From the NCBI RefSeq assembly GCF_009914755.1, contig NC_060931.1: DNA of 64,000 nt. One strand, 5' to 3'. Below the pieces are notes generated by a model. It saw only the letters and a list, made by a program, of their open reading frames with translations. It was not told the origin of the DNA and did not search any database. Positions within the stretch are counted from its first letter, which is position 1, and each line of letters opens with the position of its first letter. The position numbers were made by a program, and so were the translations under genes. Positions 16,741 to 47,208 of the stretch are shown here, one piece after another. This DNA comes from the human T2T-CHM13v2.0 reference genome, Homo sapiens.

Positions 16741-16761
16741 AACTTTTTTGAGAGATAATTC

Positions 16762-17067
16762 TTTTTTTTTTTTTTTTTTTTCTGAGACAGAGTCTCACTC
16801 TGTTGCCCAGGCTGGACTGCAGTGGCGCAGTCTAGGCTCACTGCTAGCTCCACCTCCCGGGTTCACGCCATTCTCCTGCCCCAGCCTTCTGAGAAGCTGG
16901 GACTGCAGGCGCCCGCCACCATGCCTGGCTAATTTTTTTGTGTGTTTTTAGTAGAGATGGGGTTTCACCATGTTAGCCAGGATGGTCTCGATCTCCTGAC
17001 CTCGTGATGCACCTGCCTCGGCCTCCCAAAATGCTGGGATTAGAGGCATGAGTCATCACACCCGGCC
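16762..17067 (-). mobile_element. AluY
   Basis: Poly-T followed by full antisense Alu with Y diagnostics (TTCACGCCATTCTC, GTTAGCCAGGATGG). Confidence 0.9.
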
Positions 17068-17254
17068 AGATTCTGAAATTTTAGAGAAGCTACAAGCCTA
17101 GCCAAAAAAAGGCTATTATTGCTCAACCTCTAAGGCAAATTCTGTGATGTGAATCTCAAGTTGTTACTTACTGAAGTATGACATTTATCAGAAAGACAAC
17201 TTTTCTCAATACCTTTCTAAAATATGATCAACCTTAAAAAAAAAACAAAACCAA

Positions 17255-19707
17255 GACCGATCTATCTGATGTCTTCAAGAGACCCATCTCACATGTAATG
17301 GCATCCATAAGCTCTAAGTAAAGGGTTGGAGAAAGATCTACCACACACATGGAAAATTTAAAGGTGAAGGAGTCACTATTCCTGCATCAGAAAAAACAGA
17401 CTTCAAACCAGTAACAGTAAAAAAACAGCAAAGAAAGGCATTACATAATGATAAAGGGTTCAATTCAACAAGAAGACTAAGCTATCTTAATTATATTTGC
17501 ACCCAATATTGGAGCACCCATATTCATAAAACACATACTTCTAGATCTACAAGGAGCCCCAGACAGCCCACACAGTAATTGTGGGGAACTTCAACAACTC
17601 ACCAACAGTATTAGACAAATCATCAAGGCAGAAAACTAACAAAGAAATTCTGGACTTAAGATTGATATTTGGTCAGCTGGACCTAATAGACATCTACAGA
17701 ATTTTCCATTCATCAACGACAAAATACACATTTTTCTCATATGTATATAGAACGTATTTCAAGATGGACCACATGCTCAGCCATAAAGCAAGTCTCAATA
17801 AATTAAAAAAAAAATAGAAGTCATACAAACCACATTCTCAGAACACAGAGGAAAAAATATAAATCAATGCCAAGAAGATATCTTAAAATCACAAAATTGC
17901 AAGGAAATTAAACAACTTACTCCTGAATAACTTTCAGGCAAACAACAAAATATAGGCAGAAGTGAAAAATATTCTTTGAAATAAGTGAAGAGAGACAAAA
18001 CATATTAAAATTTCTGGGATATGGTGAAAGCAGTGTGAAGAGGAAAGTTTATAGCTAAACACCTACCTCAAAAATTTAGGAAGATTGCAAACTAATGATC
18101 TAACATCACATCTAGAGGAACTAGAAAAAGAATAACAAGCTAACTCCAAAGCTGGCAGAAGAGAAGTAGTAACTAAAATCATTGTGGAGCTGAATGAAAT
18201 TGAGACCTCAAAACCCATACAAAGAATTAACAAAACCAAAAGTTTATTTTTTGAAAATATAAACAGGATTGTTAGACCACTAACAGAGGGAAGGTCTAAT
18301 TATGCACAAACAGAAATGAGAGGTGACATTACAACCAATCACACAGAAATACAAAAGATCCTCAGAGACTATCATAAGCACCTCTATGCACACAAACTAG
18401 AAAATCTAGAAGAAATAAATTCCTGAGAACATGCAATCTTCCAAGATTGAATGGGAAAGATATTGAAACACTGAACAGACCAACATTGAGTTCTGAAATT
18501 GAATCAGTGATTAAAAAAAAAACCTACTAATCAAAACAAGTCTGGACCAACTGGATTCACAGCCAAATTCTACAAGATGTATGTAGAAGAGTTGTTACAA
18601 ATTCTTCTGAAACTATTTCAAAAAATTAAGAAGAAAGGACTCCCCCACAAGTCATTTTACAAAGCCAGCGTCACCCTAATATCAATGCATGGCAAAGACA
18701 CAACAACAAAGAAAACTACAGGCCAATATCTCTGATTAATAGAGATGCAAAAATCTTCAACAATTTACTAGGAAACCAAATTGAATAGCACATCAGTTAA
18801 TTCACCAAGATCAAGTAGGCTTCATTCCTGGGATGCAAGGTTGGTTCAACATGTGGGATTTAATAAATGTGATTTACCACATAAACAGAATTTGAAACAA
18901 AAAAAATATGACCACCTCAAGAGATGCAGAAAAATATTTCAATAAAATCCAACATCTGTTCATGATAAAAATTCTCAAGACACTAGACATTAAAGGTACA
19001 TGCTCCCTAATAACAGCCATCTATGACAAACCCATGGCTGACATCATACTGAAGAGGCAAAAGCTGGAAGCCTTCCCTTAAGAGCTGGAACAAAATATGG
19101 ATGGCCACTCTCACCACTCCTATTCAACATAGTTCTGAAAGTGCTAGCCAGAGAAATCAACAAGAGAGAGAGAAAAAAAAGAGCATCCAAATAGAAAAAG
19201 AAATCAAACTATCTCTCTTCACCTGATATTATTCCACACCTAAAGACTCCTACAAAAGGCTCCTGGAACTGATAAATTATTACAGGAAAGCTTCAGGATA
19301 AAAAAACCAATGTACACAAATTAGTCACATTTGTGTACCCCAATAACGTTCAAGCTAAGACTGAAAACAAGAACATAATCTCATTTAAAATAGTTACAAA
19401 AATTAAAATACCTGGAAATACATCTAACCAAGGAGGCAAAAGATCTCTAAGAAGAAAACTGTAAAACGCTGGTAAAAGAACTCATAGATGACACCAATGC
19501 AAAATTATTCCATGCTCATGAATTGGAAGAATCAATATTGTTAAAATGACCATACTGTCCAAAGCAATCTACAGATTCAATGCTATCCCTATGAAACTAT
19601 GAATACCATTTTTCACAGAATTAGAAAAAAAAAACTATTCTAAAATTCATTTGGAGCCCCTAAAAGCCTGAGCAGTCAAAGCAGTTCTATGAAGAGAGAA
19701 CAAAAGA
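17255..19707 (+). mobile_element. Degenerate L1 ORF2 fragment (endonuclease-RT; L1PB/L1PA-old type)
   Basis: ORF pieces GNFNNSPTVLDKSSRQKTNKEILDL...DLIDIYR and [14 protein letters not shown]...[10 protein letters not shown]; CAAGTAGGCTTCATTCCTGGGATGCAAGGTTGGTTCAAC. Many stops and frameshifts; no 3'UTR or poly-A. Confidence 0.92.
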
Positions 19708-20629
19708 GAAATATCTAATATCCAAATTGTAGTTGTAGGTAAGCCATGGCATTTTGCCTATGCCCTTTCCTTTTCACTCCGAAGTAGGTTTTACAATTCC
19801 AAATGTCTCACGTACGTGCATACAAATCTGTGTATGTGTGTGCATGAGTGTGTGTAAACTAAGAAAGCCCTTTTAGTCCACATTACCTGGGAGCAATTAA
19901 TAGTCATATGATACATAAAAATAAGTATAAAAAAATAAAAATTACCTTTACAGAAGCTAAAAATCAACAGAGTAAAAATCAACACTCTTAATATTCATAG
20001 AAATGTGGAGACACACCATCTATTTCCATAAGATGTTCAAACAATGTTTGAGTTAAGCTTCTCGAATTCTCAACAGTTTACACAGATGTCAGTTCATAAG
20101 CAGTACACATAGAACACGGAGACAAGTATAATTCCTGAAGGGTTAATTTACAAGTGGATGGATTAGGGTTGGGGTACAGATACCACAAAGGATAGTGAAG
20201 TAACCTGTCACTTCCTAGCAGCCATTTCCTTACCACAAGCACATCTGAAGGAGAAGGTGCATTACTCAAAATCAGAAGTAAAACATCTTGTACAGTCTGT
20301 GCTTTGTTTGAATCAGTGGTTAAAGATGTAGCTACTTACAGGGAAGAAGCAAGATGAATTAGTATGCTGGTCTAACTCTTTATCCTTTGCAGCTCCTGTT
20401 AAGGGTTCACCATGAGCTGAGGCCATTTAGAAGTCAGAGGACCCAGAAGACATAATGTATGTTAAAAAAGGTAATGGGAAAAAGTGGCACATGAATTTAA
20501 AGGAGCAAATAAGGTATCTTTCACAGTTTAGAAACATTAGCTTTCATAGGGATCTTTTTCAAACACATACATGAGATAGTGTCTCTAAAATGCTTAGGAC
20601 AATGTCTGGCTTGCACGGAAGAGGTTCTA

Positions 20630-20952
<323 letters not shown>

Positions 20953-21070
20953 TTACTAGATTCATTCTTCTTTCTATATTTGCAAAATTTTCCAGCAAGA
21001 ATGAGTAAATAGAAGAATCAAGGCCCCTTTTCTCTCAGAAGAAAGCATTTACTGTGTTAAAGGAACACAA

Positions 21071-22114
21071 GCTGCATGTTGATGATACATCATTACATAA
21101 ATATTTGACAATATTTGCTCCTTTATGAAGTAATTGGCATCAAGATTTAAGCTATCAAATACATTTACTATGTGCCATTTTGTATAAAACATATTTATAT
21201 TGCTTTGAAATGAGCAGATATTTGCAATGATACTGTCCTTGAGTGGAGATGTTGTGTTCACATTAATTTGGTCTGATAATTATGGGTAGCAAAATCTAAT
21301 GGTTGTGGGACACAAACTCTGTTAACATTGCTAACTGAGGTATGCATTCAACTATTTTTGAATATACTTAATAGTTTTTGATGCTTCCTGGTGTACTTCT
21401 TGCTGTGGATTTCAAACCAGCATCAAATATCTTGTTTGTATATACATATATTGGGGAGATATAGCGAAGTAAATAGTTTCTACAAGAATCCATGTCATTG
21501 ATTTCACACCCTGATAGGCAGCAGTTGTTCCAGGATCTCTGCTAAAACTCCTCATATCTAATAGCACTGCAAATAAGAGAATGGACTTTACTCATGCCAA
21601 AGTCAAACAGAATCCTCTAAAAATTTAAGGGAATAATGGTTTTAATGCAAATATTTCTTTTTTGATTTCTAAAATATAGCTTTAGAAATTTACTTGAAAA
21701 AATATATATGGTCTACTCTTGAAACCTTGAAGAAAAATCTGTCCTGAATTTTTGTACATTTTTTTCTCTAGACATAAATGAAAAAGCATTTTAGAAGACT
21801 ACTTAACCAGAACTGTTAACGTCTAGCATCTTTCAGTTGTATGTGATTTGGGAAGAGAAGAGGAAAGAGGTAAGGTATTAGATACATTTTTGCCAATGAC
21901 AGTTAGTAGACAAAATTAAAATAACATGGACATAACATGTCTAGCCAAGGACAATTTCATTAAAAATATCTGTTCAGCTCAAACCAATATAAATCTATTT
22001 TATACAAAATGTTATACAGCAAATATATTCAATAGCTTTGATCTTGATGACAATTACTTCATAAAGGAAAAATATTTCAAACATTTATGCAATGATATAT
22101 TGTCAACATGCAAC
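21071..22114. repeat. Diverged inverted repeat, arms ~21071-21300 and ~21877-22114
   Basis: Left TCCTTTATGAAGTAATTGGCATCAAGAT versus right-arm reverse complement TCCTTTATGAAGTAATTGTCATCAAGAT. The supplied ORFs 21049-21261(-) and 21926-22186(+) are mutually similar. Confidence 0.9.
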
Positions 22115-24704
22115 ATGCCCATGCCAAATATGTACTTCATTGTTTTCATTATCAACAATAATTCTTTAAATCTCCTCTTGTTCTAGCTGCCACTTAATTT
22201 GTCAGCAGAATTTTCTAGAAAGGTGTTAGAGAACAAGAATGTTTTTTAAAATGCTGACAAAAGAGGAAAAGGACATTATTAGGAAAGAACAGAGAAACAG
22301 TGGTAATAACCAATTTTAACATTTTTTCAGAATACAAAAGTAAAAATTAAAAAATGATAGTAGATTCATGTTATGACATGTAAAAAAAAGTATGCTTAAG
22401 AAGAAGTGTTTCTATTTTTTATTTTGTCTATCTACTAGCAAACTCCTCTGTCTGCTATAAAATGCTGCTAGAAAAAGATGTTATAGAGAACTTACAGATA
22501 TTTGTATAATTTTATATCTCATTTTAAAAAGTATGCCAATGACCAATAGATGTATACTAATTAAGGTAATCTGCGTGGACCAAATTGAGCACCCCAGATT
22601 TCAAAAGGTATTCAAAATAATTTACCTATGTGTATCTTGATTCTGGTAGAGGCTGTCTGTAGACCTGGTGGTCAGTGAGTAATTACATCATAGTAAAAAT
22701 CATGTGGGTTCAATTAAATAAAATATTATTTCCTTAAGAATATAACAGTATGCCTCAAATATGTACAAAATGTATTTCTACTCTGATATGTAAAAACCCA
22801 CTTTTCTAATATATTGTGTACAAGAAGCATGACGGTTTGATGTTGCAAACCGTAGTTGGGTGGTCTGTTAGATTTTACAATAAACATACTGCTCTATAGG
22901 ATCATAGAGGAATGTGTGGGAATCAGGTAAGAGTGATGAAGTGAATATATTGGCAACCTGGAGGTTTGAAAAAGACATCTGAGCAACTCTTGTAATTCTT
23001 TATATTTCCACACTATATAGCAAAGGCAGAACTAAACACAGAAAAAAAAAATGGTAATAAGGCAAAAAGAAGGAGAAAACATGATATCCTTTCATTGTCT
23101 AGCATGATTTTTGCATGATACATGAAATAAAAATACAAAAAAACTTTCATAAGCAATATAATCTAACTTGCTTATAAGCAAAAAAAGCTGTCTTGATCAT
23201 TAATATCATGTTTAATCTAAAATAATTTTCATTTAGGGAATTTTATAGATTCTTTGAAGTATCAAAATATATCTGTACATAATTATAGCACCAATTATAT
23301 GAGTTGCAGAGGTAAATTCTGCTTGAGCAAACATAAGAAAAGAGCATATGTTTTCTTTTTTTTTTGCTTCAGACATTTTTTCTTTTTAGAATAAAACTCT
23401 CTTCAACCAGAAAAATATATTTCAATATGGTTTTTAATTTAAAAATAAGTCATGTGGTTTTTCATGATTAGTCCCTAATTTGAAAGCTTAGTCATTTGGG
23501 AAAAAATAAATATTGTTCAATCAACACAGTATTTTCTTCTTTAAACCTTTTATTCACATGGCTTTTAGTTTACCAGTACCAATCCTGAAATACCTAAGAC
23601 TGAGGGTTTAAAAATTTCACATCTTTAATATTTTTTTAAATTAATATCCCTTTTAAGACCTAGAACTCATTGCCTAGTGAATTCCTTAATGTAGTCTCCA
23701 ATGCATAATACATAGCTAAGCTTCCTTTGGACAGGTAATACCTCCTTTTTGATTGATTAAAAGGAAGTAATAAAGTATTAAGTAAAACACTAATTGAAAT
23801 ATAAATATTTTAGATTAGATAACCATCATAAAAATTATTCATACATGAAATTGAAACCATTTCACTGCACGTATTTTACTGATTACAGAATTTGTAATGC
23901 ATGTTCTACCCTGTGAAGAATAAAAATACTATCTTTCCAGAGTATCAAATATGTCATTGAAAATTTTATAGAACATGCTGCCTGGGAAGAAGTAGGATCA
24001 CTTGACATTGTTAAACATTAGCAAAGACAGAAATAACAGCTTGTGCCAATGCAAATTGCCTGGAAGTTTGTTGATACAGATGAACATGGACAGATGGTTT
24101 TCTGTAAGCAGTATCATCATTGGTTTTCTACTTAACAGAAATGAAGGACCTCATATTTATGATAACATATTAGAAATCATGAGAATGAAGTTGCTCATTT
24201 TTCTTCTAATACTTTTCTCTATCAAGTAGAGACACTACTAGGAGAGTGCCTAGTGAGTACTTACACACAGTGTAAAGTTATCCATTCTGTTTAGGTGATC
24301 TTGCCTATAATCATGGTCCAATATAGTATTCCACTCTTGCAGTAAAGAGTGGTTATCCATCCATTTTAAAAGTTCTAAGTCTATATCCTTATTGGAGGAT
24401 GCAGACAGAAGAGGGAATTGTTTGAAGTTTATGAGTGTAGAGTAGGGAAAAGTAACACATGCTTGCATCTTACTTAAGGGTTTTCTGAGTGGTCATAAAA
24501 TCAAACCACCTGTTTAGGGACGTACTTAGTGGTAACAGAAACCAATAAGACAGAACACATCTTCAACGTCCCCAGAAGGAGAAGATGCATAAAGAGCTAT
24601 CACAAAAGGTTAAAACTAAAGGAGAGAAGAGGGATCAGTGAAACAGGAAGATATATGTACAGTGATAGTTCTGAGAAAGGTTCTTTTACCCTAAAATGGC
24701 TTTT

Positions 24705-24975
24705 GTTTTTATTTTTTTGAGACAGAGTCTGGTTCTGTCACCCAGGCTGGATTGCAAGCTCCGCCTCCCGGGTTCATGCCATTCTCCTGACTCAGCCTCC
24801 CGGGTAGCTGGGACAACAGGCACCCACCACTATGCCAGGCTAATTTTTTGTATTTTTAGTAGAGACGGAGTTTCACCGTGTTAGCCAGGATGGTCTTGAT
24901 CTCCTGACCTCGTGATCCGCCTGCTTCGGCCTCCCAAGGTGCTGGGATTACAGGCGTGAGCCACCGTGCCCGGCC
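24705..24975 (-). mobile_element. AluY with ~25-bp internal deletion
   Basis: TSD CCTAAAATGGCTTTT at 24690-24704 and 24976-24990. GGCTGGATTGCAAGCTCC lacks the GTGGCGCGATCTCGGCTCAC segment. Confidence 0.9.
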
Positions 24976-25056
24976 CCTAAAATGGCTTTTAAGTGTTTTC
25001 TTGAATGAAAACACCAGATATATTCAACAGCAATACTAACACAAAAAGACTTGGCA

Positions 25057-25353
25057 GCTGGGCGCAGTGGCACAAGCCTGTAATCCCAGCACTTTGGGAG
25101 GCTGAGGCAGATGGATTCATTGAGGTCAGGAGTTCAAGACTAGCCTGACCAACATAGTGAAACACCATCTCTACTAAAAATACAAAATTAGCTGGGCATG
25201 ATGGCGGTTGCCTGTAATCCCAGCTACTCAGGAAACTGAGGCGGGATAATTGCTTGAACCTGGGAGGCGGAGGTTACGGTTAGCCGAGATAACACCACTG
25301 CACTCAAGTCTGGGTGACAGAGCAAGAGTCCGTCTCAAAAGAACAAAACAAAA
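25057..25353 (+). mobile_element. AluS
   Basis: Full Alu; TSD CAAAAAGACTTGGCA on both sides. Confidence 0.9.
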
Positions 25354-26701
25354 CAAAAAGACTTGGCAAACAAACCACTGTCGTTCTTTGGATAACAATG
25401 TTTTAACCATTTCCAATATAAGGTCCAAGTGTCCAGACCCCCACGTCTGTAAGAGATCATTGCTAGTCACAAACGTTCAGGAAAACAATCCTAGCTTGTA
25501 CTTCCTAATAACTAATTAGAAGTGTCTCTTCTGCAATTTGATTGAATCATCTCCAAGGAAAACACTGTTGTAAAAAATATATGTATATAAGTATATATAA
25601 TTATGTATATATGGGTACAATTTTAAATACATTTCATTACATTGATGTGCTCTCAAAAATAATAAACATGCAAACTAAACTCCTAACTGTTGCTTAGACA
25701 ATACTATAGATACATGTAGTCAATAACCTTTCTCCTGAACTGTAATCTCAATGAAATAAACTGATCTTTAACCCAAAGAAATGTGAACATCATCAGTATG
25801 GGATTATGTTTCCTTTATAATGGCTTTAATCAAGTGTCACTATACTGCTGAGTTTTAACTACAATTGCATTAAATTGCAATTTACTTAAGAATATTCAAG
25901 AGTCCTTAAATTTTCTAAATATAAATACAACCTAACTTAAAACTGATTTTCAACAGAAAATGTTTTTACCTTGTATTAAAATTATTAGACACACTATGAT
26001 TACCCAACTGAAACCTGGTTCCAGTTAGATATTTTTCTGAATCCAGATGCTAGTAACATATAATATCTCTGTACATAACATCTTTACAAGATATTTAAAA
26101 TATGACATATTTACAATCACTTAAATATTGTTTTTGCTACCAATTGACTAGTGAAAATTCATACAATATCCTCATTTTTCAAGTAATAAGCTATTTTATA
26201 GTAGTTAGCATTGAGATTGCTCCACAATCCATTTTCCTCAAACTATATTTTCTTCCTCTGAAATCCAAATTAATCATAGATGGTAATATCTTTTGTGGAA
26301 GTAGAACTAAGGAGGAGATTTAATGGGCAATTAGTGGACAATTATGTTAGCTCTTTTTAAAAAATTAGAAGACTTAATTTTTAAAACAAATTCAAAATCT
26401 TTTTTAAATTTGAATATCTTATCAACTGCTTGGATATGAAAACTTATATTTTTTTATGTTTCTACACTCTAGTTTCGAGTTACCTTTGTACCATAATCTA
26501 TTATGGACAAAAAATAAAAATACCTATAGAGCACAAAATTTGAGAAAGAATGAAACATAATCCTTACCCCTTCACCCTTTCTATAAAAATTATAATAACA
26601 AGAATGATTATAAAAATACATATGTAGCATAAAAACTATTTTCAAATCCTGATTCTATTGCTGATAATAAGGATATGGTATCTCTTTAAAAAGAAGATAA
26701 C

Positions 26702-27231
26702 TGTGGCATTTTAAAAATATAGCCACGAATACTTTGAATGTCCTCACATCAAAGGGTAGACATCATGTTTCTTCCTCTGTTAGGCTGTGATTGCGTAAAC
26801 CGACTCAGCATTAAAGTAATTCTATGTGACTTCTGAGGCAAGATTATTAAAGGCAATACATTGACCCATTAACTGAAACACTCAGGCAAGCTACCTGTAT
26901 GATTCCATGCTGTGAGGAAGCTCAAGTTACATGAAGAAGCAATATTCAGACACTCTGGTTAAGAGATTATTTTGAGCCCAGCCTTTAAGTCATACCAATG
27001 CAGGAGCCAAACATGTAAATGAAGAGGCTTTCAGAAGATTTCATTGTCCAACGTTTAATTCATTCCTAGACATCTAGGACTTCTCAGAGGCCCCAAATAC
27101 TGTAGACCACAGAAATATCACCCCACTTTGCATTTTCAACCCCGACCCCAGAATATATGATGACAAAATGATTATTGCATCACGCCACTGAATTTGAGTA
27201 GTTTGTTTTGCAGAAATAACTAGCAGAAGCA
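26702..27231 (+). mobile_element. MLT1F/G/H-like MaLR LTR
   Basis: TGTGGCATTTTAAAAATATAGCCAC...TGTGACTTCTGAGGC...CCATGCTGTGAGGAAGCTCAAG...GCCACTGAATTTGAGTAGTTTGTT. Confidence 0.65.
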
Positions 27232-30214
27232 ATCACAAATAGAAATGTTTTCTTTCTCCACAGTTTGGAAGACCATCACAAAAAGGAAAGAAGAGAAAAT
27301 GTGACATAGTACAAACCTGAGTCTTCCATTTGATAGCTGTAAATTTTAGTAGTTGGTATGTAAATCATGAATGATATTCTGATATTCTGGGCATTTATGA
27401 GAAGTTAAATTAGATAGCATAATTAAAGTATCAGACACAATTGTGCTTTCAACCAAAAATGCATAGTTATTTTATCCCTCCCCTTAGTATTAAATAAATT
27501 TTAATAGGTCTTTTTATAGGTGAAACATTATTGTCAGAAAAGAATTTCAAACTATATAAATGAGAAAAAAATAATGTTTGGCTTCTTTGAAATTAAGGAA
27601 AATTTCATAGTGCAAGAGGTATTGGTAACGCAGTCTACAGACACAAAAATTTCATTCATTTTTATAATACATGACTGTCTCACAGGAAGAATACAAAGTT
27701 TGAGACACACAGGTAAATAAAAGGATTGCATTTCCAGTCCTCATGGAATTTAGAATCTAGCAGGTAAATAAATGGGAATCACAAACAATTTTTAGCCCGA
27801 TGAGTTTTTAATAAAGACCACAATACTGTGGGAATATAGAGCAGCAAAATTTGCCCTTGTCTCCTCGAAAATAAACCATTAAACTGATTCAAAGTAATAG
27901 TGGCTAGTAAATATTAGAGAAGTATGCCTTGAAGAAGCAGCAATAGACATAAAAGCTGTGAGAAGAATGCAGAACATCTTAGTGAAATCGAGAGACAACT
28001 AGTGTGTTTGGGTCGTAGACACCAGTAAGGGCATGTGACTGGAGAGAGAAGTTAGCGCTATATGAAAAGGACCTTTAGTAGATTACCGAATTTCTCTTAA
28101 GGGAAATAGTACATTATTCAAAGGGGTTAAACAAGTGATTTCAGATATTTGTTTTAAAATGTTAGCTAAATAATGCACAATCTATATGACTCTCCAGAGT
28201 AAAACTCTTAGAGATTTTCATACTTTTTTTTCTGTTTTGATGCTCATGACATACCCTCATTCAAAAAAGGTTTGGGCATTATTCTTCTATAATTATACAA
28301 TGGACATAAGAATACTTGATTTATGATTTGTACTGCCATGACCTGATTTAGGAATCAGAAATATAAAGCCTTTTTATCACATACATGATTCAATTGGCAA
28401 AACTATTTAAATTTATCACTATGTTGTTTCATGATTTAACAAAAAAAAATCCCACAAAATGAGTTTACACTCTAAACTGTATTCCAAGTATAGCAGGAAA
28501 TTTCATAGAAATATATTTAAAGAGGATTAGTTAAGTTTTGAAAAACTATATATAATTACTAAACTGAAGAAAATATTAAATTAGGATAAACCTCATTATT
28601 TTTGTCATAGTATCAAATGTCTATATATTTGCTTCACATTTAATATTGACACTTGTAGTTTGAAAGCCTCTTAGTCTTTCTTGCTGTCTAATGGATGTTT
28701 GCTTAATAGGCCTTGATACTATTGTAGGCTTGAATTTACATAAATCTTACCTCCAGGACACACAATATGATAACTACCTATCCTATACAGAGGGTCCAGA
28801 TATTCTACCTATGTCTTTCTGGTCTCATTCATAGAACTTACTTCTACTACTAGTACACTCTTCTCATGAGAAAACAAATAAAAAACAAAAACAAAAAGAA
28901 GTCTACTTCCTCTTCACTCTCTTGCTTCTGCTCCCTGTCTCGTAAATTCAATGTGCTGGTTCTTTGCTCATGGAAACATTGCTTGGATCCAGAATGTGAC
29001 TTTGCTTTCTGTGGTGTTGGCTCTTCTGCTAGCTTCTTTCCTTTTATCCTTTTATTAAAAATTATTCTAACATATTTTCAGCATATTTTCTACCAACATT
29101 CATCAGAATTAGTAAGGAATCTCTGATTAAAGTTAAGCATTATGGCTATGTAAGTTAAATGAAAGTTAAGTATATTCAACATATATAAATATTGGCATAC
29201 AGCATAGCATCCAAGGACATAGTCTTGAAAGATAATTAAAACACTTAACTTTGATATGTGAGCTTGGTATGAGAATGAAACTGCACACACACACAAACGT
29301 AACATTTACCAGAAAATTTTCAAGTTATTTTTTTCAAAGGAATGTCACCTACTATGATCACAAAAGTTGGATGTCAGGAGTAATTAATTATCTCATACTT
29401 TTAGCCACAATGCTTAGACAGTAGGAATTAAAGTTTAAAATTGGGACATAAATCTGGAAAAAAAGGTTAAGTTGGCTCTGTGGGATCTTATGTATAACTA
29501 AAAATGCTTATATTTTTCATCAAACTATTCTCTTTTAAAGGTTTGCTTTACAGCCAATTAGTTTTGCTGTATTATGAGTCATATGTTTAATAATGAGAAA
29601 AAAACACGTTTTCTATATGTTGTTTTAGAAGAGATGGAAAAGCACTTCAGAATTTTGTCAGAAAAAAAGAAATACCTATCAAAGTAATTTTTCACTGTTA
29701 CAAATTCGAGTGTGTCAACATCTACTCTATATATTAAAGTCTATTCAACACATGCATAAATAATGGAATTAATAATATAAAATATAAATGACTGCAAATA
29801 AGTTGACAAATTGTTGAAAGTTATTTGCTAGAACATGAAAGTCAAATAATAAAAGTTGGGGAATACCAAAATATCATGTGCTTATCTGTCTAGGGAGATT
29901 GATTACTTAATCCACTTCTTTTTAAAGCTTCATGAGCACTCAAATATATTGTAATTCTTTCTGAATGAAAAGATAATATTCGTACAATGAATGTGAGGGT
30001 TTCATGTTGATCTTCCTATTGTCTTTTGTTTAACAACAAAACAACCTTTCAAACATAACAATATAAAACAAAAATTATTTGAGTACCTAGCAGACTTCTC
30101 ATGGAGAAAGAAAGGCACTGAGACCCAATTTGCTGTAGAGTGAGATTCCAAAGTATATTTTAGAAGAAAGAAGAGAAATTAAAGAAAGCCTTAATTTCCT
30201 TGCATAAGAAATAA

Positions 30215-37394: not shown

Positions 37395-37698
<304 letters not shown>

Positions 37699-37709
37699 TT
37701 ACGTTTCCA

Positions 37710-38500
<791 letters not shown>

Positions 38501-39710
38501 CTACCCCAAAACTTTGTCCCCCACCATTATTTCCCTACCTTCTTTTCCTGACGGACTTTGGCCCCCTCCCTCTCACCACCCTTTTTCTTTCACCATCTGC
38601 CCCCAAACTTCTTCATCATTTTTTGCCCACCCTCATTTCATAAAGCCTTCTCTACTCTCCTGCTCAACACCCTTTTCCGCATCCATCTACCCAAACCCTT
38701 TCCCCAGTTTCTTCCCACCGTCTTTTCCCCTATCCCTGGCCACCCTCTTTTTCCCCGTCCCGCTCTTATCACCCTCTTTTGCTCCTTTATCTAAGCAAAA
38801 ACATTTTCCCCCGTCTTTTCCCAAAACCTTCTCTCCACTCCTGGTGCTCACTACCCTCTTTCCCCCCTTCATCCAACCAAAAACTGTTTTCTTCATCGTC
38901 TTTCCCCCGGTTCCCCATTTCCATTCTCCTTCCCTTCTCCATCTACCCAAAAACATTTCCCCCCATCTTTACACAAAGCCTTCTCCCCATGCCTATTCAC
39001 CTCCCTGTTTCCCCCTCCATCTACACCCCAAAACTTTCCCCACAATCTTTTCAAAGTCTCCCCACTTTACCACTAGTGCTCTTCTTTCCCCCCATCCTGC
39101 TTGCCACCCTTTTTTCCCCTCCATCTACCCCAAACTATTTTTCCATTGTTTCCCCAACCCCCTATCCCTGCTCCCTCTTGCCACCCTCTTCCTTCCTCCT
39201 TGTCACCCTCTTTCCCCTCTCCATCTATAGAAACACTTTTCACCCACCGTCTTTTCTTTCTTCACTGTCTTTCTTTTCTGCCACTGTCTTTTCACAAAAC
39301 CTTGTCTTCCTCCTGCTGGCTACCCTTTTTCCTTCTCCCACTTGCTACCCTCTTTTGCTCAACCCAAAAACTTTTCCCCCCTACTGTATTTTCTCCCCAC
39401 TGTCTTTTCACAAAACCTTCTCTCCCTACCGCTCGCCCCGTTTTCCCCCATCACCTCCCTCTCTTTCCTCCGCCCACTTGCCACCCTCTTTTCCCCCTCC
39501 ATCTACCCTTTAACTTTTTACCCACCGTCTTTCTGCAAAACCTTCCTTCCCTCCCGCTCCCCGTGATGTTTTTACCCCTCCATCTACCCAAAAACTTTTT
39601 TCCCCACCATCTTTTCACAACGCCTTCTCCTGCTAAGCTATCCTTTTTTCCCTTTGGCACTAACTACCCTCTTTACTCTCCTCTATCTATCCCAAAACTG
39701 TTTTCCTTCT
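38501..39710. repeat. Degenerate pyrimidine-rich tandem repeat (unit ~70-105 bp)
   Basis: Recurrent CCATCTACCCAAAAAC-TTTTCCCC..CCGTCTTT..CAAAACCTTCT..GCCACCCTCTTT; anchors near 38593, 38683, 38939, 39017, 39121, 39221, 39499, 39580. Confidence 0.85.
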
Positions 39711-39901
39711 CCTACCGCTCCAGTCGCGCTGCTATCTCTCCATCACTGCCAACAACCGCAGCAAGGCGAGCCGCGTTCACGTGGCTCCAGCCTCCAGCAT
39801 ACGGCCACTGACTCCTGATTCCTAGTCCTCTACGTTGGGCAGCGACCAACTCGACATGAAGATACAGGAACCTGAAAAAACGTTATCTCTCTTCAACATC
39901 A

Positions 39902-40145
39902 TTTATATACTGCGGTAATGCCCACGGTGGTTCCTGGACTGCATGTCTTGATTGGATGAGAAAAAAACCTCCAGGCTTACTCTGATTGGACTTTATGATC
40001 ATGTTCTGGTTGGATGAGAGCAAGTCTTAACACAACCAATCACAGCATGAAAATAAAGTCCAATCAGAATAGGCCTAGAGGTTTTTTTCTCGTCCAATCA
40101 GAACATGTAGTCCAGGAACTGCATTTGCATAACCTCATATATAAA
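39902..40145. promoter_or_regulatory. Palindromic bidirectional Pol II promoter
   Basis: TATATAAA on minus at 39902-39909 and on plus at 40138-40145. ATTGG at 39951 and 39985, GTTGG at 40009; CCAAT at 40036, 40060 and 40094. Octamer ATTTGCAT at 40123-40130. Symmetry axis ~40024. Confidence 0.8.
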
Positions 40146-40169
40146 GCATGCTGAGGTCGCATCAGGTCA

Positions 40170-40498
40170 TTTCAGGCTCTTCGGTGTCGAGCAGAGGAGC
40201 AACTCTGTGCCCAGCTTAGAGGACTGAAAGAGGCCACAACCTTCCGCCTGCTGGAGGGTGGAGGATGGATGGAGCCTGGAGCCTGGGTCACTACCTTGTT
40301 GCGGTTTGTGGTGGCGATAGAGCAGTAGGATGGTGGCCGGCAGCAGGAGCTTCTGCTGATGGGCTGGGGGACTAGAAGGAAGAGGCACTGCCACGTGCTG
40401 GAGGCTGGAACCTGTGCCACCATGGCTCGCCTCGCTGTGGTTGGTGGTGACGTCGGAGACTGCAGCTCAGCCACAGTAGTAGAAATGTGATGGGGTAG
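40170..40498 (+). other. Predicted non-coding first exon ending in a strong 5' splice site
   Basis: Starts ~30 nt after the TATA and ends at TAG|GTGAGT (GT at 40499-40500). No transcript evidence available. Confidence 0.45.
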
Positions 40499-40519
40499 GT
40501 GAGTTTTCCGGGCCTGCCC

Positions 40520-41095
40520 TTTATGTCTCTTGGGGCAAGGGTTGGGTGTCCTATTGGGGCTTACTGCTAGAGGCTACCCTGCCTGTGGCAGTGGTCTGGT
40601 TGGGGGCACTCTCCGGGGTTGCATTGCTGGTGGTGGGGCAGGTTGCCTGGCTATCTGGGGCTATACTGCCCGTGGTGGCAGGGGTGGTGGGGGGAGGCAG
40701 ATTGTGTACACTAGCTTGTATTGCTGGTGGCTGGGGAAGGATTAGGGGCACTATCTTCTGCTGCACTGCCCGCAGCAGGGGGTGGGTTGGGTGGAGTTAT
40801 GCGGGGCTACAATGTTGGCAGTGGGGGGTGATTTAGGGGCGTTGTTGGGTGCTGCATTGCCTGTGACTTGGGGGTGCATCATTAGGAGCTGAACTGCCCG
40901 TGGCTGGGTCAGATTGTGGGCACTATTGGGTGGTATGCTCCCTGAGGTGTGGGGGAAGTGCTTTTGGGGGGGGTATTGGGGTTACATTGCCTGAAACTGT
41001 AGGGTGTGTTGGATGTGCTATCTGGGGGCTACACTGCTAGTGGCAGGGGGCAGATTAGGGGTGCCATGGGGGCTACACTGCCAGTGGCATTGGCG
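40520..41095. repeat. Degenerate G-rich tandem repeat
   Basis: About 12 copies of GGGGCTACACTGCC-like cores separated by GGTGG/GGGG runs. Confidence 0.75.
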
Positions 41096-42579
41096 AGCTG
41101 AGGAGGTGGCAGCAGCAGCGACAGCAGTGGCCTTCTTCTTCTCGTAGCTTCCAAGTAAGGGATCGTTTTCCTCTTCTCAGACTCCAGACTCCAGAAGGTG
41201 ATTTTCTCCCCCTCGAGCTGGATTGCAGGACAGGGCCTCCACACCCACTGTGGTTTCCCGGCCTGCCCTCATGCTTTGTGTTGTGAAGACCGCCTGGGAC
41301 TACCGGGCAGGGTGTAGTAGGCACCATGGGGGAAGTGGGAGACAGGACACTGTGGGTGGAGGTGTCAGGAATGGGAACCAGCCCTTGGGTGGGGAGGGCT
41401 GGCTGGGTCTGAGTTTCTCCTACTCAGGCTCCCCAAGGAGGGCAGCCTTGGGGGGCCCAGCAATTCCTGGCCAGCTGGACTTGGCCAGGGGCCGGTTTCA
41501 GTGAAGGCACTCACTCCCACCCCAGGCCCCAGGTCCTGGCCAGCTTTTGCCAGAAGGAGAGGCTGGACTTTGGAAGGTGGGTGTGAGTGCCTTCAATGAA
41601 ACTGATCCTTGACACCCAGTCACCAGCATAACGAGGTGAGGCTCTAATGGTTCCAATCCCTGAGTCCTGTTCTGGGCTTTTCTGGCTTTGCCTGCCCAGC
41701 TGCTCCAAGCCAGGCTGAAGGAGGAGAAGGGGGAGTTGCCTGTGGTACGGTCAAGCAGATGATGTGGCTGTGCAGCTTGCCTCATGCAGTTGGTGGTGGA
41801 GATGGAGACCACAGCTCGACTGGAGTGGTAGGAGGGCACTCACGGGGGCCTGGTGGTAGGAGCCTGGTAGGGTGGGCTGGTACGTTGAGGGTGACTGGTT
41901 GTATTGGCATTGGCACAAGTGGTGGTAGCAGTAGGAAGTCTGGGGGCCAGGAAGGGGGAGTAGGAGCACTGCAGGGCCCATCCCATTCTGGGGTGGGGAG
42001 GAACCTGTGGGTGTTGTAACGAAGGTCTCGGTGGCAGTGGTGGTGGTACACCTAGGGCAAAGAGGAGTCCTCCCTCTTCTCCTGCAATCTCTGGAGTATG
42101 CCCTCCTCCTGCTTGTGCCTGAGCTAGGCGTGAGTGGCAGCATTATCTCATTCTTAACAAAATTTAGGGGGTGACTATTTGTGTATCCTTTTGCTTGTTC
42201 TCTGTTGTAATACTCTTGGAGTTACTCAAATTTTATGAATCGAGGAGGGGATAAAAGGTATCATAATAGGCCTTCCAATTCCCCACACCTGTTCTTTTTC
42301 CTTTCTTCCATTGTGTATTTTCTTCTCATTTTCTTGTTCCTCTTCATTTTCTTTTGCTACTGCTTCTATTTCATGTTTGTATTCTTGTTTCTCCTCCTGT
42401 TTTTGTTTTTTTATGCCAAGCAATGGCCTTAACAAACCAAAACTGAGTTAAAAATAAAATACTTGTCACTGTTGTATTTTTTAAATAACTGATCCCTTAC
42501 TATGTTTTAGAGATGAGGGAAAAAAAAGTCAGTTGTATAATTAGTTACTTGAATAGCTATGCTTTCATAATTGTGTTAA

Positions 42580-42710
42580 CCCACTTATGCCTAGTGTTCC
42601 ACACTAAGCATGTGGGAATTACTTATATCTTACTGCTAAATGTCATTGACAAGGTCTGATTTTTCACTTACGCAAAAATTCAAAAAATTGTAACCTCTGG
42701 CATAAATAGG
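42580..42710 (-). mobile_element. MER85 (piggyBac/PGBD3-derived MITE)
   Basis: TTAA|CCCACTTATGCCTAGTGTTCCA...AAGGTCTGATTTTTCAC..GCAAAAATTCAAAAAATTGTAACCTCTGGCATAAATAGG|CTAA; 131 bp. Confidence 0.88.
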
Positions 42711-43749
42711 CTAATGCGTTGTAAATGTTATTCAAGGAATCAAAAAATGAAGCATCACATAAAATATTGGTAGCAAACAGCCATTTTATCTCTCTCACAT
42801 ATTTTTTCTGGAGCTATGCAAGAGTCACAGGGGTAATAAGTTCTAATTTATGAGATGATCAATTGAACTGTATTCCTTTCAATTTTTTTCTCTGTCCCCA
42901 TTTTCAAGAGTATTGTCATCTGCATGAGCAAACCTGGTTCATCACCACAACTTTGCAAGAGGAAAAAGAAGGGGGGAGAGTCATATGTATAATGTTGTAA
43001 GGCAAAGATTCACAACCAAAAACAAGGTTTTATTAACTTTTGCCTTTAAGAACCTGCAATGTTTAGCCCTCTTTGATTCCTAGTGTTACTACCTTTGGTA
43101 TGAACTCTTTTTTTAAACTGATCACTGTAGAAGTTTATGCATTTTGTATCATTTTTCAAGCCAACAGAAATGTGTAAGGCCTATAATTCTGACACTTTTT
43201 AGTTATTTTTAAGGCTATGAGCATGTAAGATACTGTTGATATATGGAAGAATATGTATAAATACCACTAGGCAGCTTATTTTGAAGAGATAGTATCTAAA
43301 TTTTTGTCCAGAGTAGATTGGTTGCAGTTTCTTAGGTGTGTTTCTTAATACTTTGCCTCAGTGTTTTAAATCATGTAGAAATTTGAATACAGTTTAATTT
43401 CATATAGTCCTTTGTTTATAGGTTTAATATTTCTAAAGACTAAAGACATCACAGCTCCGTTTAAGATTCAGTAATATTAATAAAATTTTAGAAATACAGG
43501 GTTAGAATCCAACAAATTCAGAGGAAAATTGATAATTATATAGCTGTAGAGCAGGAATGAAACCCAGCTTCTAAGCTCTAAGGGGGCCATGAGGTACCAT
43601 ACAGGTGCATCAGTGACTGGGCAAAGATTCAGCAAAATTAAAGGATGGTTAAGAGAGTGAGCTGTGAAGCCCAACTCTAGGCAACATGAATTTTTAAACT
43701 GCATGGTGCCTCAGTTTATCCATCTTTACAGTGGGGACTGTAGTAAGTT

Positions 43750-44447
43750 TTTCTTTTTCTGCTCAGTTGTCTGTCTTGTTGCCACTGTTCCCTAGTCTGT
43801 CTTGTTGCCACTCAGTGCCCACATGAGAGGACCTAAGGTAATTTCTGACAGGCTGGGACTCCTTAAAGAAAAACAGAAGGTGCTACTAACCCCATTTTAG
43901 GAGAAACCTCTGTTGTCCTCATGGAACCCCAAGAACTTCAGGCAGACAGGTCTCTCTCAAAATCTAAGGCTCTCCTCTGTTTTGCTTTGCATTATCTGAC
44001 CTTTTAGGTTTCGGTGGGCATCAGAAATCAGTCGGGGAGAGAGATCTAAAGAAAGTTGTGGATATGAAGATGTATTTATGGTAAGAAAAGTTATGAAGGA
44101 AAGAAATGTTATATGAGAGAGGATCTTGTATGGCAAATTTTTGTCCTAAAGTAGAATGACTAATTATCAAAGAGGGAAATACAGGAGAAGTCACAAAGTT
44201 CATGTCATAGATGGTCTGTGGAAGTTGTGTTAGGGTTCATAAAATGAGAAAGAAAAACTTACAACTGCTAGATCTTTTCCTGTCTAGAAGTGTTGTGTAT
44301 GTGATGTATACATAAAGGAGCCCTAATTACTTGGCTTAGAAGAAAAGGAAGGGTCTTAACTATTTTGTCAGAAAAATAGAATCTCTAATGCCTTTTATTT
44401 CACATGACTTAGTAATCTTTGGGAAATAAAGACTGTGTTAAAATCAT
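43750..44447 (+). mobile_element. ERV1 (MER4-group-like) internal fragment
   Basis: GGACCTAAGGTAATTTCTGACAGGCTGGGACTCC...GAGAAACCTCTGTTGTCCTCATGGAACCCCAAGAA...CTCAAAATCTAAGGCTCT; ends abruptly at a half-Alu. Confidence 0.6.
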
Positions 44448-44572
44448 TTTTTAGTAGAGACAGGGTTTCTTCGTATTGGTCAGGCTGGTCTCGAACTCCC
44501 AACCTCAGGTGATCCGCCCATCTTGGCCTCCCAAAGTACTGGGATTACAGGCGTGAGCCACTGCACCTGGCC
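44448..44572 (-). mobile_element. AluS left monomer only (truncated at the middle A-rich linker)
   Basis: TTTTTAGTAGAGACAGGGTTTC...CACCTGGCC with no right arm. Confidence 0.85.
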
Positions 44573-44708
44573 TACAAATAGGTTAAATTATTTTGTAAAT
44601 TAGCTGTTGTTTGTTTTGCCTACTCTCAGACTTCTGGATTTTTTTTTAAGTATGAAGGATTTCAATTGTTATATTAATATAAAAGCTTAGATAAATAGCA
44701 CAAACATG

Positions 44709-46108
<1,400 letters not shown>

Positions 46109-46315
46109 TTAAAAGCATTTCTTTAAAAAAAAAAATTCTGTTTGTTGGGATTTGGGGGAGGAAGAGAGAGTAAATATGGGATTGGTTCATCCTAGATAGC
46201 ACTCGTGGTTCTAGATAGTGTTAGAATGCAATAATGTTTTAATTTATATATGCAGGGAATTTTGGAGTAGTTTCAATCCTAGGAAAAAACTCTGAGTTAC
46301 AAATATGGAAAGATT

Positions 46316-46731
<416 letters not shown>

Positions 46732-46898
46732 TTAAGTAGATTAGTCAGGAGTAAAGGAAAAGTCAAGATTCCCAACTTATTTGGATTTCTTTCCCCCATT
46801 ACGGTGTACTCAAGGAACAAAATTTGGGCTGTTTGGCTGTTTTTATTCTTTGTTATACACAAATAAACTGATATAAAAACCAAATATATTGAGGTTAC

Positions 46899-47208
<310 letters not shown>

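What the first reader, a model, noticed from the sequence alone, without database searches (positions are those of the whole stretch)
39902..40145. Mirror-symmetric promoter: TATA and three CCAAT boxes per arm
Seen: arms of ~110 bp are reverse complements (GGTTCCTGGACTGCATGTCTTGATTGGATGAGAAAAAAACCTCCAGGCTTACTCTGATTGGACTTTAT versus the right-arm reverse complement AGTTCCTGGACTACATGTTCTGATTGGACGAGAAAAAAACCTCTAGGCCTATTCTGATTGGACTTTAT). All three CCAAT pairs map to the same axis (40024.5), with 24- and 34-bp spacing, and an outward-facing TATATAAA ends each arm. Known: multiple CCAAT boxes ~32 bp apart are the NF-Y cooperative arrangement. Inference: a single promoter was inverted-duplicated into a portable two-way promoter (predicted TSS ~40170 on plus and ~39877 on minus) that could also extrude a cruciform.
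Basis: partly seen in the sequence, partly recalled or inferred. Interest (0 to 1): 0.72.

Follow-up and report, generated by a model that had tools for sequence, protein, structure and literature searches.

The report
Palindromic CCAAT/TATA core of REP522-type repeat
The mirror-symmetric CCAAT/TATA block is real, but it is the centre of a many-copy human palindromic repeat (most likely REP522) already reported to supply promoters that switch on in cancer, so this copy is an ordinary, apparently silent member of a known family.

Summary
Arms 39930-40016 and 40033-40119 are 85% complementary. The palindrome extends with gaps to 39785/40263. The CCAAT pairs share axis 40024.5 with 34/24-bp spacing, and outward TATATAAA boxes lie at 39902-39909 (minus) and 40138-40145 (plus). 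One correction: the innermost left box reads CCAAC in this copy only.

It is not a unique promoter. The same core occurs at 53 or more places in this genome, in pericentromeric, acrocentric and duplicated regions. It sits inside a unit of about 3.8 kb or more with a C-rich left arm and a G-rich right arm. [quoted passage not shown]

The CCAAT array is the best-kept part: 203 of 240 boxes are intact in 40 copies found through their arms alone. The TATA boxes and an octamer are kept far less well.

Best reading: a latent two-way NF-Y/TATA promoter that is silenced epigenetically. NF-Y binding, start sites and activity of this copy are untested. Cruciform extrusion and "portability" are not supported. 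Novelty is low.

The parts
38375..39784 (.). Left outer arm of the repeat unit: C-rich on the plus strand (GC skew about -0.7 to -0.83), made of degenerate short direct repeats. A minus-strand (outward) transcript would therefore be G-rich.
   Evidence: Composition; direct-repeat families D1-D9; family homology starts at 38375-38380 in 21 of 53 copies; 4 G-quadruplex motifs on the outward sense strand and 0 on the antisense.
39785..39901 (-). Left-arm region beyond the TATA box, homologous in mirror image to 40146-40263. Would-be 5' end of a minus-strand transcript, with predicted start about 39873-39878.
   Evidence: Gapped palindrome alignment. The start site is inferred from TATA spacing only. 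No initiator match was seen by eye in the sequence printed.
39902..39909 (-). Outward-facing TATA box (TATATAAA on the minus strand).
   Evidence: Exact in 21 of 53 copies and relaxed in 27 of 53; 3.25 parsimony changes per site.
39930..40016 (.). Left arm of the tight inverted repeat. It holds ATTGG at 39951-39955 and 39985-39989, plus a degenerate GTTGG at 40009-40013 (ATTGG in 39 of 53 copies), and an A7 tract at 39961-39967.
40017..40032 (.). 16-nt spacer at the centre of the palindrome (axis 40024.5).
40033..40119 (.). Right arm of the tight inverted repeat. It holds CCAAT at 40036-40040, 40060-40064 and 40094-40098, each followed by CA(G/C)A, and a T7 tract.
   Evidence: Boxes R2 and R3 are intact in 51 and 50 of 53 copies.
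40123..40130 (+). Octamer ATTTGCAT, 7 bp upstream of the right TATA box. Right arm only.
   Evidence: Exact in 17 of 53 copies and 4.0 changes per site, so not conserved.
40138..40145 (+). Outward-facing TATA box TATATAAA.
   Evidence: Exact in 25 of 53 copies and relaxed in 30 of 53; 2.38 changes per site.
40167..40173 (+). Initiator-like TCATTTC. The A at 40169 lies 31 bp after the first T of the TATA box and is the predicted plus-strand start.
   Evidence: Read. The exact 14-mer around it is kept in 10 of the 51 copies that cover it. Start-site use is not tested.
40146..42184 (+). Right outer arm: G-rich on the plus strand (skew +0.2 to +0.47 up to about 41100). It contains a 147-bp tandem duplication (40241-40262 resembles 40388-40409), a Kozak-like ATG at 40422 with a 22-codon ORF, and a donor-like TAG|GTGAGT at 40496-40504.
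   Evidence: (D12). Family homology reaches 42184 or further and runs on colinear with the chr21 copy to at least 47000.

Best explanation
The 244-bp block is the centre of one copy of a multi-copy, largely palindromic human repeat, most likely the family that RepeatMasker calls REP522.

Its anatomy is that of a two-way RNA polymerase II promoter. Six CCAAT boxes in the family's majority state (five here) span 148 bp with A/T tracts between them. Each side ends in an outward TATA box. On the right side there is also an octamer and an initiator at the canonical distance.

Inferred mechanism:
1. NF-Y trimers occupy the CCAAT array and hold it open.
2. TBP/TFIID assembles at either TATA box.
3. 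Transcription runs outward on both strands into arms that are G-rich in the sense direction.
4. In normal somatic cells the copies are kept silent by DNA methylation and H3K9me3. They fire when that repression is lost, as in tumours and the 8-cell embryo.

The inverted duplication that made the promoter two-way is older than the spread of the family. This copy reached chromosome 7 as a passenger in a large pericentromeric segmental duplication. It has no annotated transcript and carries a private mutation in one CCAAT box.

Shown here: the anatomy, copy number, conservation pattern and age order. Taken from print: promoter activity and silencing of the family. Inferred: NF-Y dependence, the start sites, and any activity of this particular copy.
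For: Anatomy.

Family:
- 40 distinct places from a core query (40 of 65 candidates scored).
- 13 more from arm queries, on chromosomes 2, 5, 7, 9, 10, 13, 14, 15, 17, 18, 20, 21 and 22.

Conservation:
- In the 40 copies found through the left arm alone, so unbiased for the core, 203 of 240 boxes are intact and 20 of 40 copies keep all six.
- Over all 53 copies, parsimony changes per site are 1.10 at CCAAT positions against 1.76 elsewhere in the core (Mann-Whitney p 0.009; permutation p 0.04), and about 5.1 in the immediate flanks.
- Window 40000-40099 is the least diverged of 33 100-bp windows in distant copies (6.6%) and third-lowest in close copies.

Age order: the majority state has 79 of 87 complementary mirror pairs, and the mismatches are shared by 23-50 of the 53 copies.

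Passenger status.

Print (passages read):
- PMC4896275: REP522 is about 1.8 kb, largely palindromic, and enriched among the most cancer-activated CAGE promoters.
- PMC3560060: a large REP522 region at BAGE carries H3K9me3 in human liver and is transcribed in Tc1 mouse liver.
- PMC6545021: expression rises at the 8-cell stage.
- bioRxiv 10.1101/189753: enriched in lncRNA exons.
Against: - No direct comparison with the REP522 consensus was possible, so the family name rests on matching descriptions.
- No NF-Y, TBP, CAGE or methylation data could be consulted for this or any copy.
- The hub's annotation shows no transcript here.
- The conservation signal is moderate. In 13 copies aligned over 3.3 kb, transversions in the core are 0.15 per site against 0.22 elsewhere (p 0.02), and several other 190-bp windows are as low (0.12-0.14).
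- The core is AT-rich and nearly CpG-free (1 CpG in 190 bp), which lowers its mutation rate. The immediate flanks are unusually fast-evolving, which exaggerates the contrast.
- The TATA boxes and octamer are near-neutral.
- Five chr9 copies have only three boxes and a sixth has four, after a 58-bp deletion.
- CCAAT spacing (19 and 29 bp edge-to-edge) is not the 31-bp peak of PMC4982600.
- A search for REP522 in the supplements of the NF-Y/transposon paper PMC12065363 found nothing (2 small files). Those of PMC3730095 could not be read.
Confidence: 0.65

Rival explanations
1. Inert fossil. The block is the relic of an old inverted-duplicated promoter that no longer does anything in most or all copies. 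It looks conserved because it is AT-rich, CpG-poor and copied passively with segmental duplications.
For: - The core has 1 CpG in 190 bp, whereas the flanks are CpG-richer (observed/expected 0.97 at 39700-39901).
- Over 3.3 kb the core is only modestly slower than the rest (0.15 against 0.22 transversions per site), and other windows are as slow.
- The TATA boxes and octamer decay at near-flank rates.
- This copy has lost one box.
- The hub table shows no transcript here.
- Spread is by large duplications.
Against: - CCAAT positions change less than the rest of the equally AT-rich core (1.10 against 1.76, p 0.009).
- Boxes R2 and R3 are intact in 51 and 50 of 53 copies, although the arms differ by 23-30%.
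- Printed CAGE and RNA-seq evidence shows that REP522 copies do initiate transcription in tumours and at the 8-cell stage (PMC4896275, PMC6545021).
Confidence: 0.25
2. Structural palindrome. The block matters as a fold rather than as a set of protein-binding sites. It could be a cruciform in DNA (fragility, recombination) or a long hairpin in read-through RNA (a Dicer substrate or annotated miRNA precursor).
For: - Strong predicted hairpins: DNA -74.4 kcal/mol, z -15.9; RNA -124 and -115 kcal/mol for the two strands of 39930-40119.
- A preprint lists hsa-miR-5701 as overlapping the Rep522 repeat (bioRxiv 10.1101/2021.12.09.471935, passage read).
- Sub-threshold Rfam hits to unrelated hairpin miRNA families lie over 39958-40091.
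Against: - 13 of 87 mirror pairs are mismatched, the spacer is 16 nt, and only 2 of the first 8 positions from the axis pair.
- The longest perfect run is 16 bp.
- Of 92 mirror pairs, 14 show a second Watson-Crick type, almost all in 1-4 copies, so there is no convincing compensatory change.
- Arm mismatches are old and shared, so the arms are not being homogenised.
- No Rfam family reaches its gathering score.
- Where in REP522 the miRNA lies was not tested.
Confidence: 0.06
3. NF-Y-bound element that is not a promoter. The CCAAT array could act as an enhancer, boundary or nucleosome-excluding site for neighbouring genes, with the TATA boxes incidental.
For: The CCAAT array is much better kept than the TATA boxes, octamer or initiator. 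The six boxes span 148 bp, about one nucleosome's worth of DNA, with A7/T7 tracts.
Against: - Printed evidence concerns promoters (CAGE start sites) and lncRNA exons in REP522 (PMC4896275, bioRxiv 10.1101/189753).
- Arm homology covers the TATA boxes and the downstream start regions.
- A donor-like site 330 nt downstream is kept as TAGGTG in every variant listed, at least 28 of the 34 copies that cover it.
Confidence: 0.04

Closest known systems
REP522 (RepeatMasker class Satellite/telo; unclassified interspersed repeat)
   Same: - Largely palindromic, multi-copy, and found in pericentromeric, acrocentric and subtelomeric duplicated DNA.
- Copies lie on the juxtacentromeric short arms of chr21 and chr13, where a REP522 block at BAGE is described (PMC3560060).
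- The family is reported to hold cancer-activated CAGE promoters (PMC4896275).
   Different: - The shared unit measured here is 3.8 kb or more (38375-42184, and colinear further in many copies), against the quoted ~1.8 kb.
- The consensus comparison could not be run.
- I did not find the six-CCAAT/TATA architecture and its conservation described. REP522 occurs in 14 papers of the library, and I read the passages of 11. The primary paper (Kaczkowski et al., Cancer Res 2016) is not held and may describe it.
LTR12 (ERV9) promoters bound by NF-Y
   Same: A repeat-borne promoter with several CCAAT boxes, silent in normal cells and switched on when epigenetic repression is lifted (titles and abstracts of PMC5085097 and PMC12065363 seen in listing; the rest is established knowledge).
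   Different: LTR12 is a one-way retroviral LTR with tandem, same-strand boxes. This element is an inverted duplication with boxes mirrored about an axis. It has no LTR or retroviral features and is spread by segmental duplication.
Divergent histone H2A/H2B gene promoters
   Same: A short shared region with a TATA box at each end, several CCAAT boxes between, and an octamer just upstream of one TATA box. The layout is established knowledge, recalled. The right arm here has CCAAT, then 24 bp, ATTTGCAT, then 7 bp, TATATAAA.
   Different: - No histone or any other coding homology flanks the block (0 significant Pfam hits for 13 open frames).
- The octamer is not conserved in the family (17 of 53 copies).
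- Histone promoters are not sequence palindromes.
Palindromic AT-rich repeats (PATRR) and other cruciform-forming palindromes
   Same: An AT-rich inverted repeat lying in low-copy-repeat regions, including chr22q11 copies of this family.
   Different: PATRRs are near-perfect palindromes of several hundred bp with almost no spacer (recalled). Here the arms are 85% complementary, the spacer is 16 nt and pairing at the centre is poor.

Membership tests
REP522 repeat family | Sequence match to the Repbase/Dfam REP522 consensus | not testable with these tools
   No Dfam or RepeatMasker library is on hand, and window.fa carries no soft-masking.
REP522 repeat family | Largely palindromic unit of about 1.8 kb (wording of PMC4896275) | tested here: met
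   - Alignable palindrome 39785-40263, plus 39749-39828 against 40369-40447.
- The arms mirror each other in composition over 38375-42184.
- Some copies (L024, L025, L030, L035) carry the same arm type on both sides in inverted orientation.
- The unit measured is longer than 1.8 kb.
REP522 repeat family | Interspersed, multi-copy, in pericentromeric or subtelomeric duplicated DNA | tested here: met
   At least 53 places on 13 chromosomes.
REP522 repeat family | A large block at the BAGE locus (PMC3560060) | tested here: inconclusive
   Copies lie on chr21p and chr13p. The two 10-kb stretches searched beside the chr21 copy, one abutting it on the right and one starting about 10 kb to its left, match chr4, chr17 (NCOR1 region), chr20 and this window, not a recognisable BAGE source.
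REP522 repeat family | Start sites (CAGE) inside the repeat, raised in cancer | not testable with these tools
   No expression data are available. Known only from the abstract in PMC4896275.
NF-Y-dependent multi-CCAAT promoter | CCAAT pentamers with favourable flanks | tested here: met
   Five perfect boxes here and six in the family majority state. The right-arm boxes read CCAATCAGA, CCAATCAGA and CCAATCACA. That these flanks favour NF-Y is recalled knowledge.
NF-Y-dependent multi-CCAAT promoter | Box spacing that allows joint occupancy (preferred 31 bp edge-to-edge, then 41 and 52; PMC4982600) | tested here: inconclusive
   Spacing is 34 and 24 bp start-to-start, which is 29 and 19 bp edge-to-edge. 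That is near but not on the reported peak.
NF-Y-dependent multi-CCAAT promoter | NF-Y occupancy in cells | not testable with these tools
   No ChIP data are available. REP522 is absent from the 2 readable supplement files of PMC12065363.
TATA plus initiator core promoter | TATA box about 30 bp upstream of an initiator (YYANWYY) | tested here: met
   Right arm: TATATAAA at 40138 and TCATTTC at 40167-40173, with the A at +31 from the first T. Left arm: TATA present, but no initiator match seen by eye in the sequence printed.
Annotated bidirectional promoter (two head-to-head transcripts) | Two divergent annotated transcripts starting within 1 kb | tested here: not met
   The hub's RefSeq table for this window lists no gene or functional element between 10174 and 59900.
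Histone H2A/H2B divergent promoter | Flanking histone coding sequences | tested here: not met
   13 open frames from 38496-42221 were scanned against Pfam. There was no histone hit and only one sub-threshold DUF match.
Cruciform-forming palindrome (PATRR-like) | Near-perfect arms with little or no spacer | tested here: not met
   74 of 87 pairs, a 16-nt spacer, and a longest perfect run of 16 bp.
Curated RNA family (miRNA precursor) | Score at or above an Rfam gathering threshold | tested here: not met
   The best hits over the core are 43 bits (gathering 74) and 42.6 bits (gathering 100), to unrelated hairpin families.

The most novel reading that the evidence does not exclude
The REP522 core may be a selectively maintained NF-Y landing pad. 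It is a nucleosome-sized (148 bp) mirror array of six CCAAT boxes that a pioneer factor can open from either side. That would make every copy a poised two-way promoter, firing whenever methylation and H3K9me3 lapse (embryonic genome activation, germline, tumours). Purifying selection on the boxes across 53 or more copies would then mean the family has a normal role, for example in early-embryo or germline transcription of pericentromeric DNA, and is not mere passenger DNA.
Probability: 0.2. Interest if true: 0.55.

Novelty: already known. Interest (0 to 1): 0.27.

Why it matters
If the reading is right, a single repeat family scatters dozens of ready-made two-way promoters through pericentromeric and segmentally duplicated DNA. 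That would help explain why REP522-linked transcripts appear together in tumours and at the 8-cell stage.

- six mirrored CCAAT boxes, the best-kept part of the element;
- flanking TATA boxes that are dispensable in many copies;
- predicted start sites.

Existing NF-Y ChIP, CAGE and methylation data, re-mapped to the complete genome, could check all three. For this particular window the result is mundane: an unannotated passenger copy with one box mutated.

Tried and rejected
- **Histone-gene origin.** The CCAAT + octamer + TATA layout prompted a Pfam scan of 13 open frames across the unit. There was no histone or other domain. The long stop-free frames in the left arm are a composition effect.
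- **BAGE first exon downstream of the core.** ORFs beside the chr21 copy show only the same short 22-31-aa frames as the window. By my recollection of the BAGE peptide, which I did not check, none resembles it.
- **BAGE link by flank searches.** The flanks of the chr21 copy match chr4, chr17, chr20 and this window instead, so this is inconclusive.
- **Rfam.** Only sub-threshold hairpin look-alikes were found.
- **Arm-to-arm compensatory evolution.** No convincing double changes.
- **Core against immediate flanks.** The first comparison suggested a 3-4-fold conservation. Widening to 3.3 kb and counting transversions only cut this to a modest effect and showed the immediate flanks to be unusually fast. 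I report the weaker figure.
- **Ascertainment bias.** I checked this by re-finding copies with arm-only queries.
- **Sources not available.**
  - The primary REP522 promoter papers were not held.
  - The supplements of PMC3730095 could not be read.
  - The paper cap stopped a look at PMC11417402.

Full report

Yes. The repeat finder reports arms 39930-40016 and 40033-40119: 87 nt, 85% complementary, 16 nt apart. A gapped local alignment of the left half against the reverse complement of the right half runs from 39785 to 40263. BLAST scores it at E 2.7e-32 with axis 40024.

A second piece (39749-39828 against 40369-40447) has its axis shifted by 73.5 bp. The cause is a 147-bp tandem duplication in the right arm (40241-40262 resembles 40388-40409).

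Motif positions:
- ATTGG at 39951 and 39985.
- CCAAT at 40036, 40060 and 40094.
- TTTATATA at 39902 (TATATAAA on the minus strand).
- TATATAAA at 40138.

One correction is needed. The innermost left box is GTTGG (CCAAC) in this copy. The other 39 copies of the first alignment all have A at that position. Over 53 copies the box is intact in 39.

An octamer ATTTGCAT lies at 40123-40130, in the right arm only. A perfect initiator TCATTTC lies at 40167-40173, and its A sits 31 bp after the first T of the TATA box.

The cluster is far above the window's background. It holds 5 boxes in 148 bp against 0.28 expected, although the boxes are not independent events. As single-stranded DNA the block folds at -74.4 kcal/mol, z -15.9.

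**2. What is it part of?**

The block is not unique.

- A search of the window's own genome with 39902-40145 gave 80 matches at 40 distinct places. Each place usually matched on both strands, because of the symmetry (40 of 65 candidates scored, so this is a lower bound).
- Queries taken only from the arms (40400-41100 and 38700-39400) found 13 further places. I fetched those as well.

That makes 53 loci on chromosomes 2, 5, 7, 9, 10, 13, 14, 15, 17, 18, 20, 21 and 22. They lie in pericentromeric, acrocentric-short-arm and low-copy-repeat regions.

Homology among copies begins sharply at 38375-38380 in 21 of 53 copies and reaches 42184 or beyond. In many copies it runs on for a further 2.7 kb.

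The left arm is strongly C-rich on the plus strand (GC skew about -0.8). The right arm is G-rich (+0.2 to +0.47). Transcripts leaving the core in either direction would therefore be G-rich in the sense strand. G-quadruplex motifs occur only on those strands: 4 and 1, against 0 antisense.

This copy is a passenger.
- The chr21 copy's left flank matches window 11235-28045 as well as chr4, chr17 and chr20.
- Its right flank is colinear with window 41693-47000.
- It then continues into sequence from the NCOR1 region of chr17. That fits the NCOR1P3 pseudogene in the hub's table.

**3. Which family?**

I could not run Dfam or RepeatMasker, and window.fa has no soft-masking. The printed descriptions of REP522 fit, all from passages I read:
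- RepeatMasker class Satellite/telo (PMC4240582).
- A large block at the juxtacentromeric BAGE locus on chr21 (PMC3560060).
- An overlap with hsa-miR-5701 (bioRxiv 10.1101/2021.12.09.471935).

My attempt to tie the chr21 copy to BAGE through its flanks was inconclusive. I put the family name at about 85%.

**4. Is the core conserved?**

In the first 40 copies, 207 of 240 boxes are intact and 21 copies keep all six. Those copies were found with the core itself, so the figure is biased.

I therefore repeated the count on the 40 loci found by the left-arm query alone. There, 203 of 240 boxes are intact, 20 of 40 copies keep all six, and R2 and R3 are intact in 40 and 39 of 40.

Parsimony changes per site on a tree of all 53 copies:

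| Region | Changes per site |
|---|---|
| CCAAT positions | 1.10 |
| Rest of the core | 1.76 |
| Core as a whole | 1.65 |
| 70 bp outside either end | about 5.1 |
| Left TATA box | 3.25 |
| Right TATA box | 2.38 |
| Octamer | 4.0 |

The CCAAT-versus-core difference has Mann-Whitney p 0.009 and permutation p 0.04.

The contrast shrinks in wider context. Across 13 copies aligned over 3.3 kb, transversions are 0.15 per site in the core and 0.22 elsewhere (p 0.02). Several other 190-bp windows are equally slow, and the shoulders next to the core are the fastest part of the unit.

Against distant copies, window 40000-40099 is the least diverged of 33 windows (6.6%). Against close copies it is third-lowest.

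The core has 1 CpG in 190 bp. Part of the effect is therefore mutational.

My reading is moderate evidence for constraint on the CCAAT array and little or none on the TATA boxes and octamer.

A natural variant exists. Six chr9 copies lack 58 bp between the internal direct repeats 39942-39961 and 40000-40019, and keep 3-4 boxes.

**5. Age and symmetry**

The family's majority state has 79 of 87 complementary mirror pairs; the window has 74. The eight majority mismatches are each shared by 23-50 of the 53 copies.

The inverted duplication therefore predates the spread of the family, and the arms have not been homogenised since. Mirror pairs show almost no double (compensatory) changes. Symmetry persists because each arm is conserved, not because pairing is selected.

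**6. How it most likely works**

The anatomy is that of a two-way polymerase II promoter, with an NF-Y-type CCAAT array flanked by outward TATA boxes. The right arm adds an octamer and a TATA-initiator pair at canonical spacing. About 330 nt downstream it has a donor-like TAG|GTGAGT, kept as TAGGTG in every variant listed, which is at least 28 of the 34 copies covering the site.

Print supplies the functional part at family level:
- REP522 is strongly enriched among the most cancer-activated CAGE promoters (PMC4896275).
- It is enriched in lncRNA exons (bioRxiv 10.1101/189753).
- It is up-regulated at the 8-cell stage (PMC6545021).
- It is covered by H3K9me3 in human liver at BAGE, but transcribed when the human chromosome sits in mouse liver (PMC3560060).

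NF-Y dependence, the start sites and any activity of this copy are inferred. The spacing (29 and 19 bp edge-to-edge) is close to, but not on, the 31-bp peak for tandem boxes in PMC4982600.

**7. Rivals**

- Inert relic kept by low mutability: about 25%.
- Structural palindrome or hairpin RNA: about 6%. The predicted folds are strong, but the arms are imperfect, pairing at the centre is poor and no Rfam family passes its threshold.
- NF-Y-bound element that is not a promoter: about 4%.

An origin from a divergent histone gene pair was tested and rejected: no coding remnant was found.

**8. Novelty and verdict**

The element is a copy of a catalogued repeat. Both its palindromic shape and its promoter activity are in print.

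I did not find the mirrored six-CCAAT architecture, or its conservation across copies, described. REP522 occurs in 14 papers of the searched library, and I read the passages of 11. The primary paper (Cancer Res 2016;76:216) is not held and may cover it.

For this window the finding is ordinary, so interest is low to moderate. The useful outcome is a set of concrete predictions that public NF-Y, CAGE and methylation data re-mapped to the complete genome could settle.

Noticed in passing
window 39942-39961 and 40000-40019; loci L041-L046: Each arm is built from a 58-bp direct repeat holding two CCAAT boxes. Six chr9 copies have lost exactly the 58 bp between the repeats and keep 3-4 boxes, which makes them natural deletion variants of the promoter core.
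   Followed up: partly
window 40241-40262 and 40388-40409: A 147-bp tandem duplication in the right arm shifts the outer palindrome axis from 40024.5 to 40098.
   Followed up: partly
window 40422-40504: A Kozak-like ATG opens a 22-codon ORF, followed by a strong donor-like TAG|GTGAGT. The chr21 copy has the same short ORF (L004 1994-2089), and the donor's TAGGTG is kept in every variant listed, at least 28 of the 34 copies that cover it.
   Followed up: partly
window 41486-41521 / 41576-41611: A second inverted repeat inside the right arm (36-nt arms, 83% complementary, 54-nt loop). It could be the hairpin annotated as a miRNA in this repeat family; this was not tested.
   Followed up: no
window 11235-28045 and 41693-47000: These stretches are colinear (91-93%) with the flanks of the chr21 copy. 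The left stretch also matches chr17, chr20 and chr4:33.8 Mb. The whole neighbourhood is a mosaic pericentromeric segmental duplication of 40 kb or more.
   Followed up: partly
window 38375-38380: A sharp common left boundary of the repeat unit in 21 of 53 copies, here directly after an Alu tail. No target-site duplication or terminal repeat was looked for.
   Followed up: no
window 38496-39811 (+): Stop-free frames of 244-289 codons in the C/T-rich left arm with no Pfam match. This is a composition effect, not a gene.
   Followed up: yes
window 39700-39930 and 40120-40400: The shoulders just outside the core, which would be the start of any transcripts, are the fastest-evolving part of the unit even for transversions (0.3-0.5 against 0.2 per site). 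The cause is unknown. Misalignment around indels is possible.
   Followed up: no
window 37395-38384: Three adjacent Alu-like units (TRF period 315; sub-threshold Rfam SRP and mir-1268 hits) abut the left end of the repeat unit.
   Followed up: no
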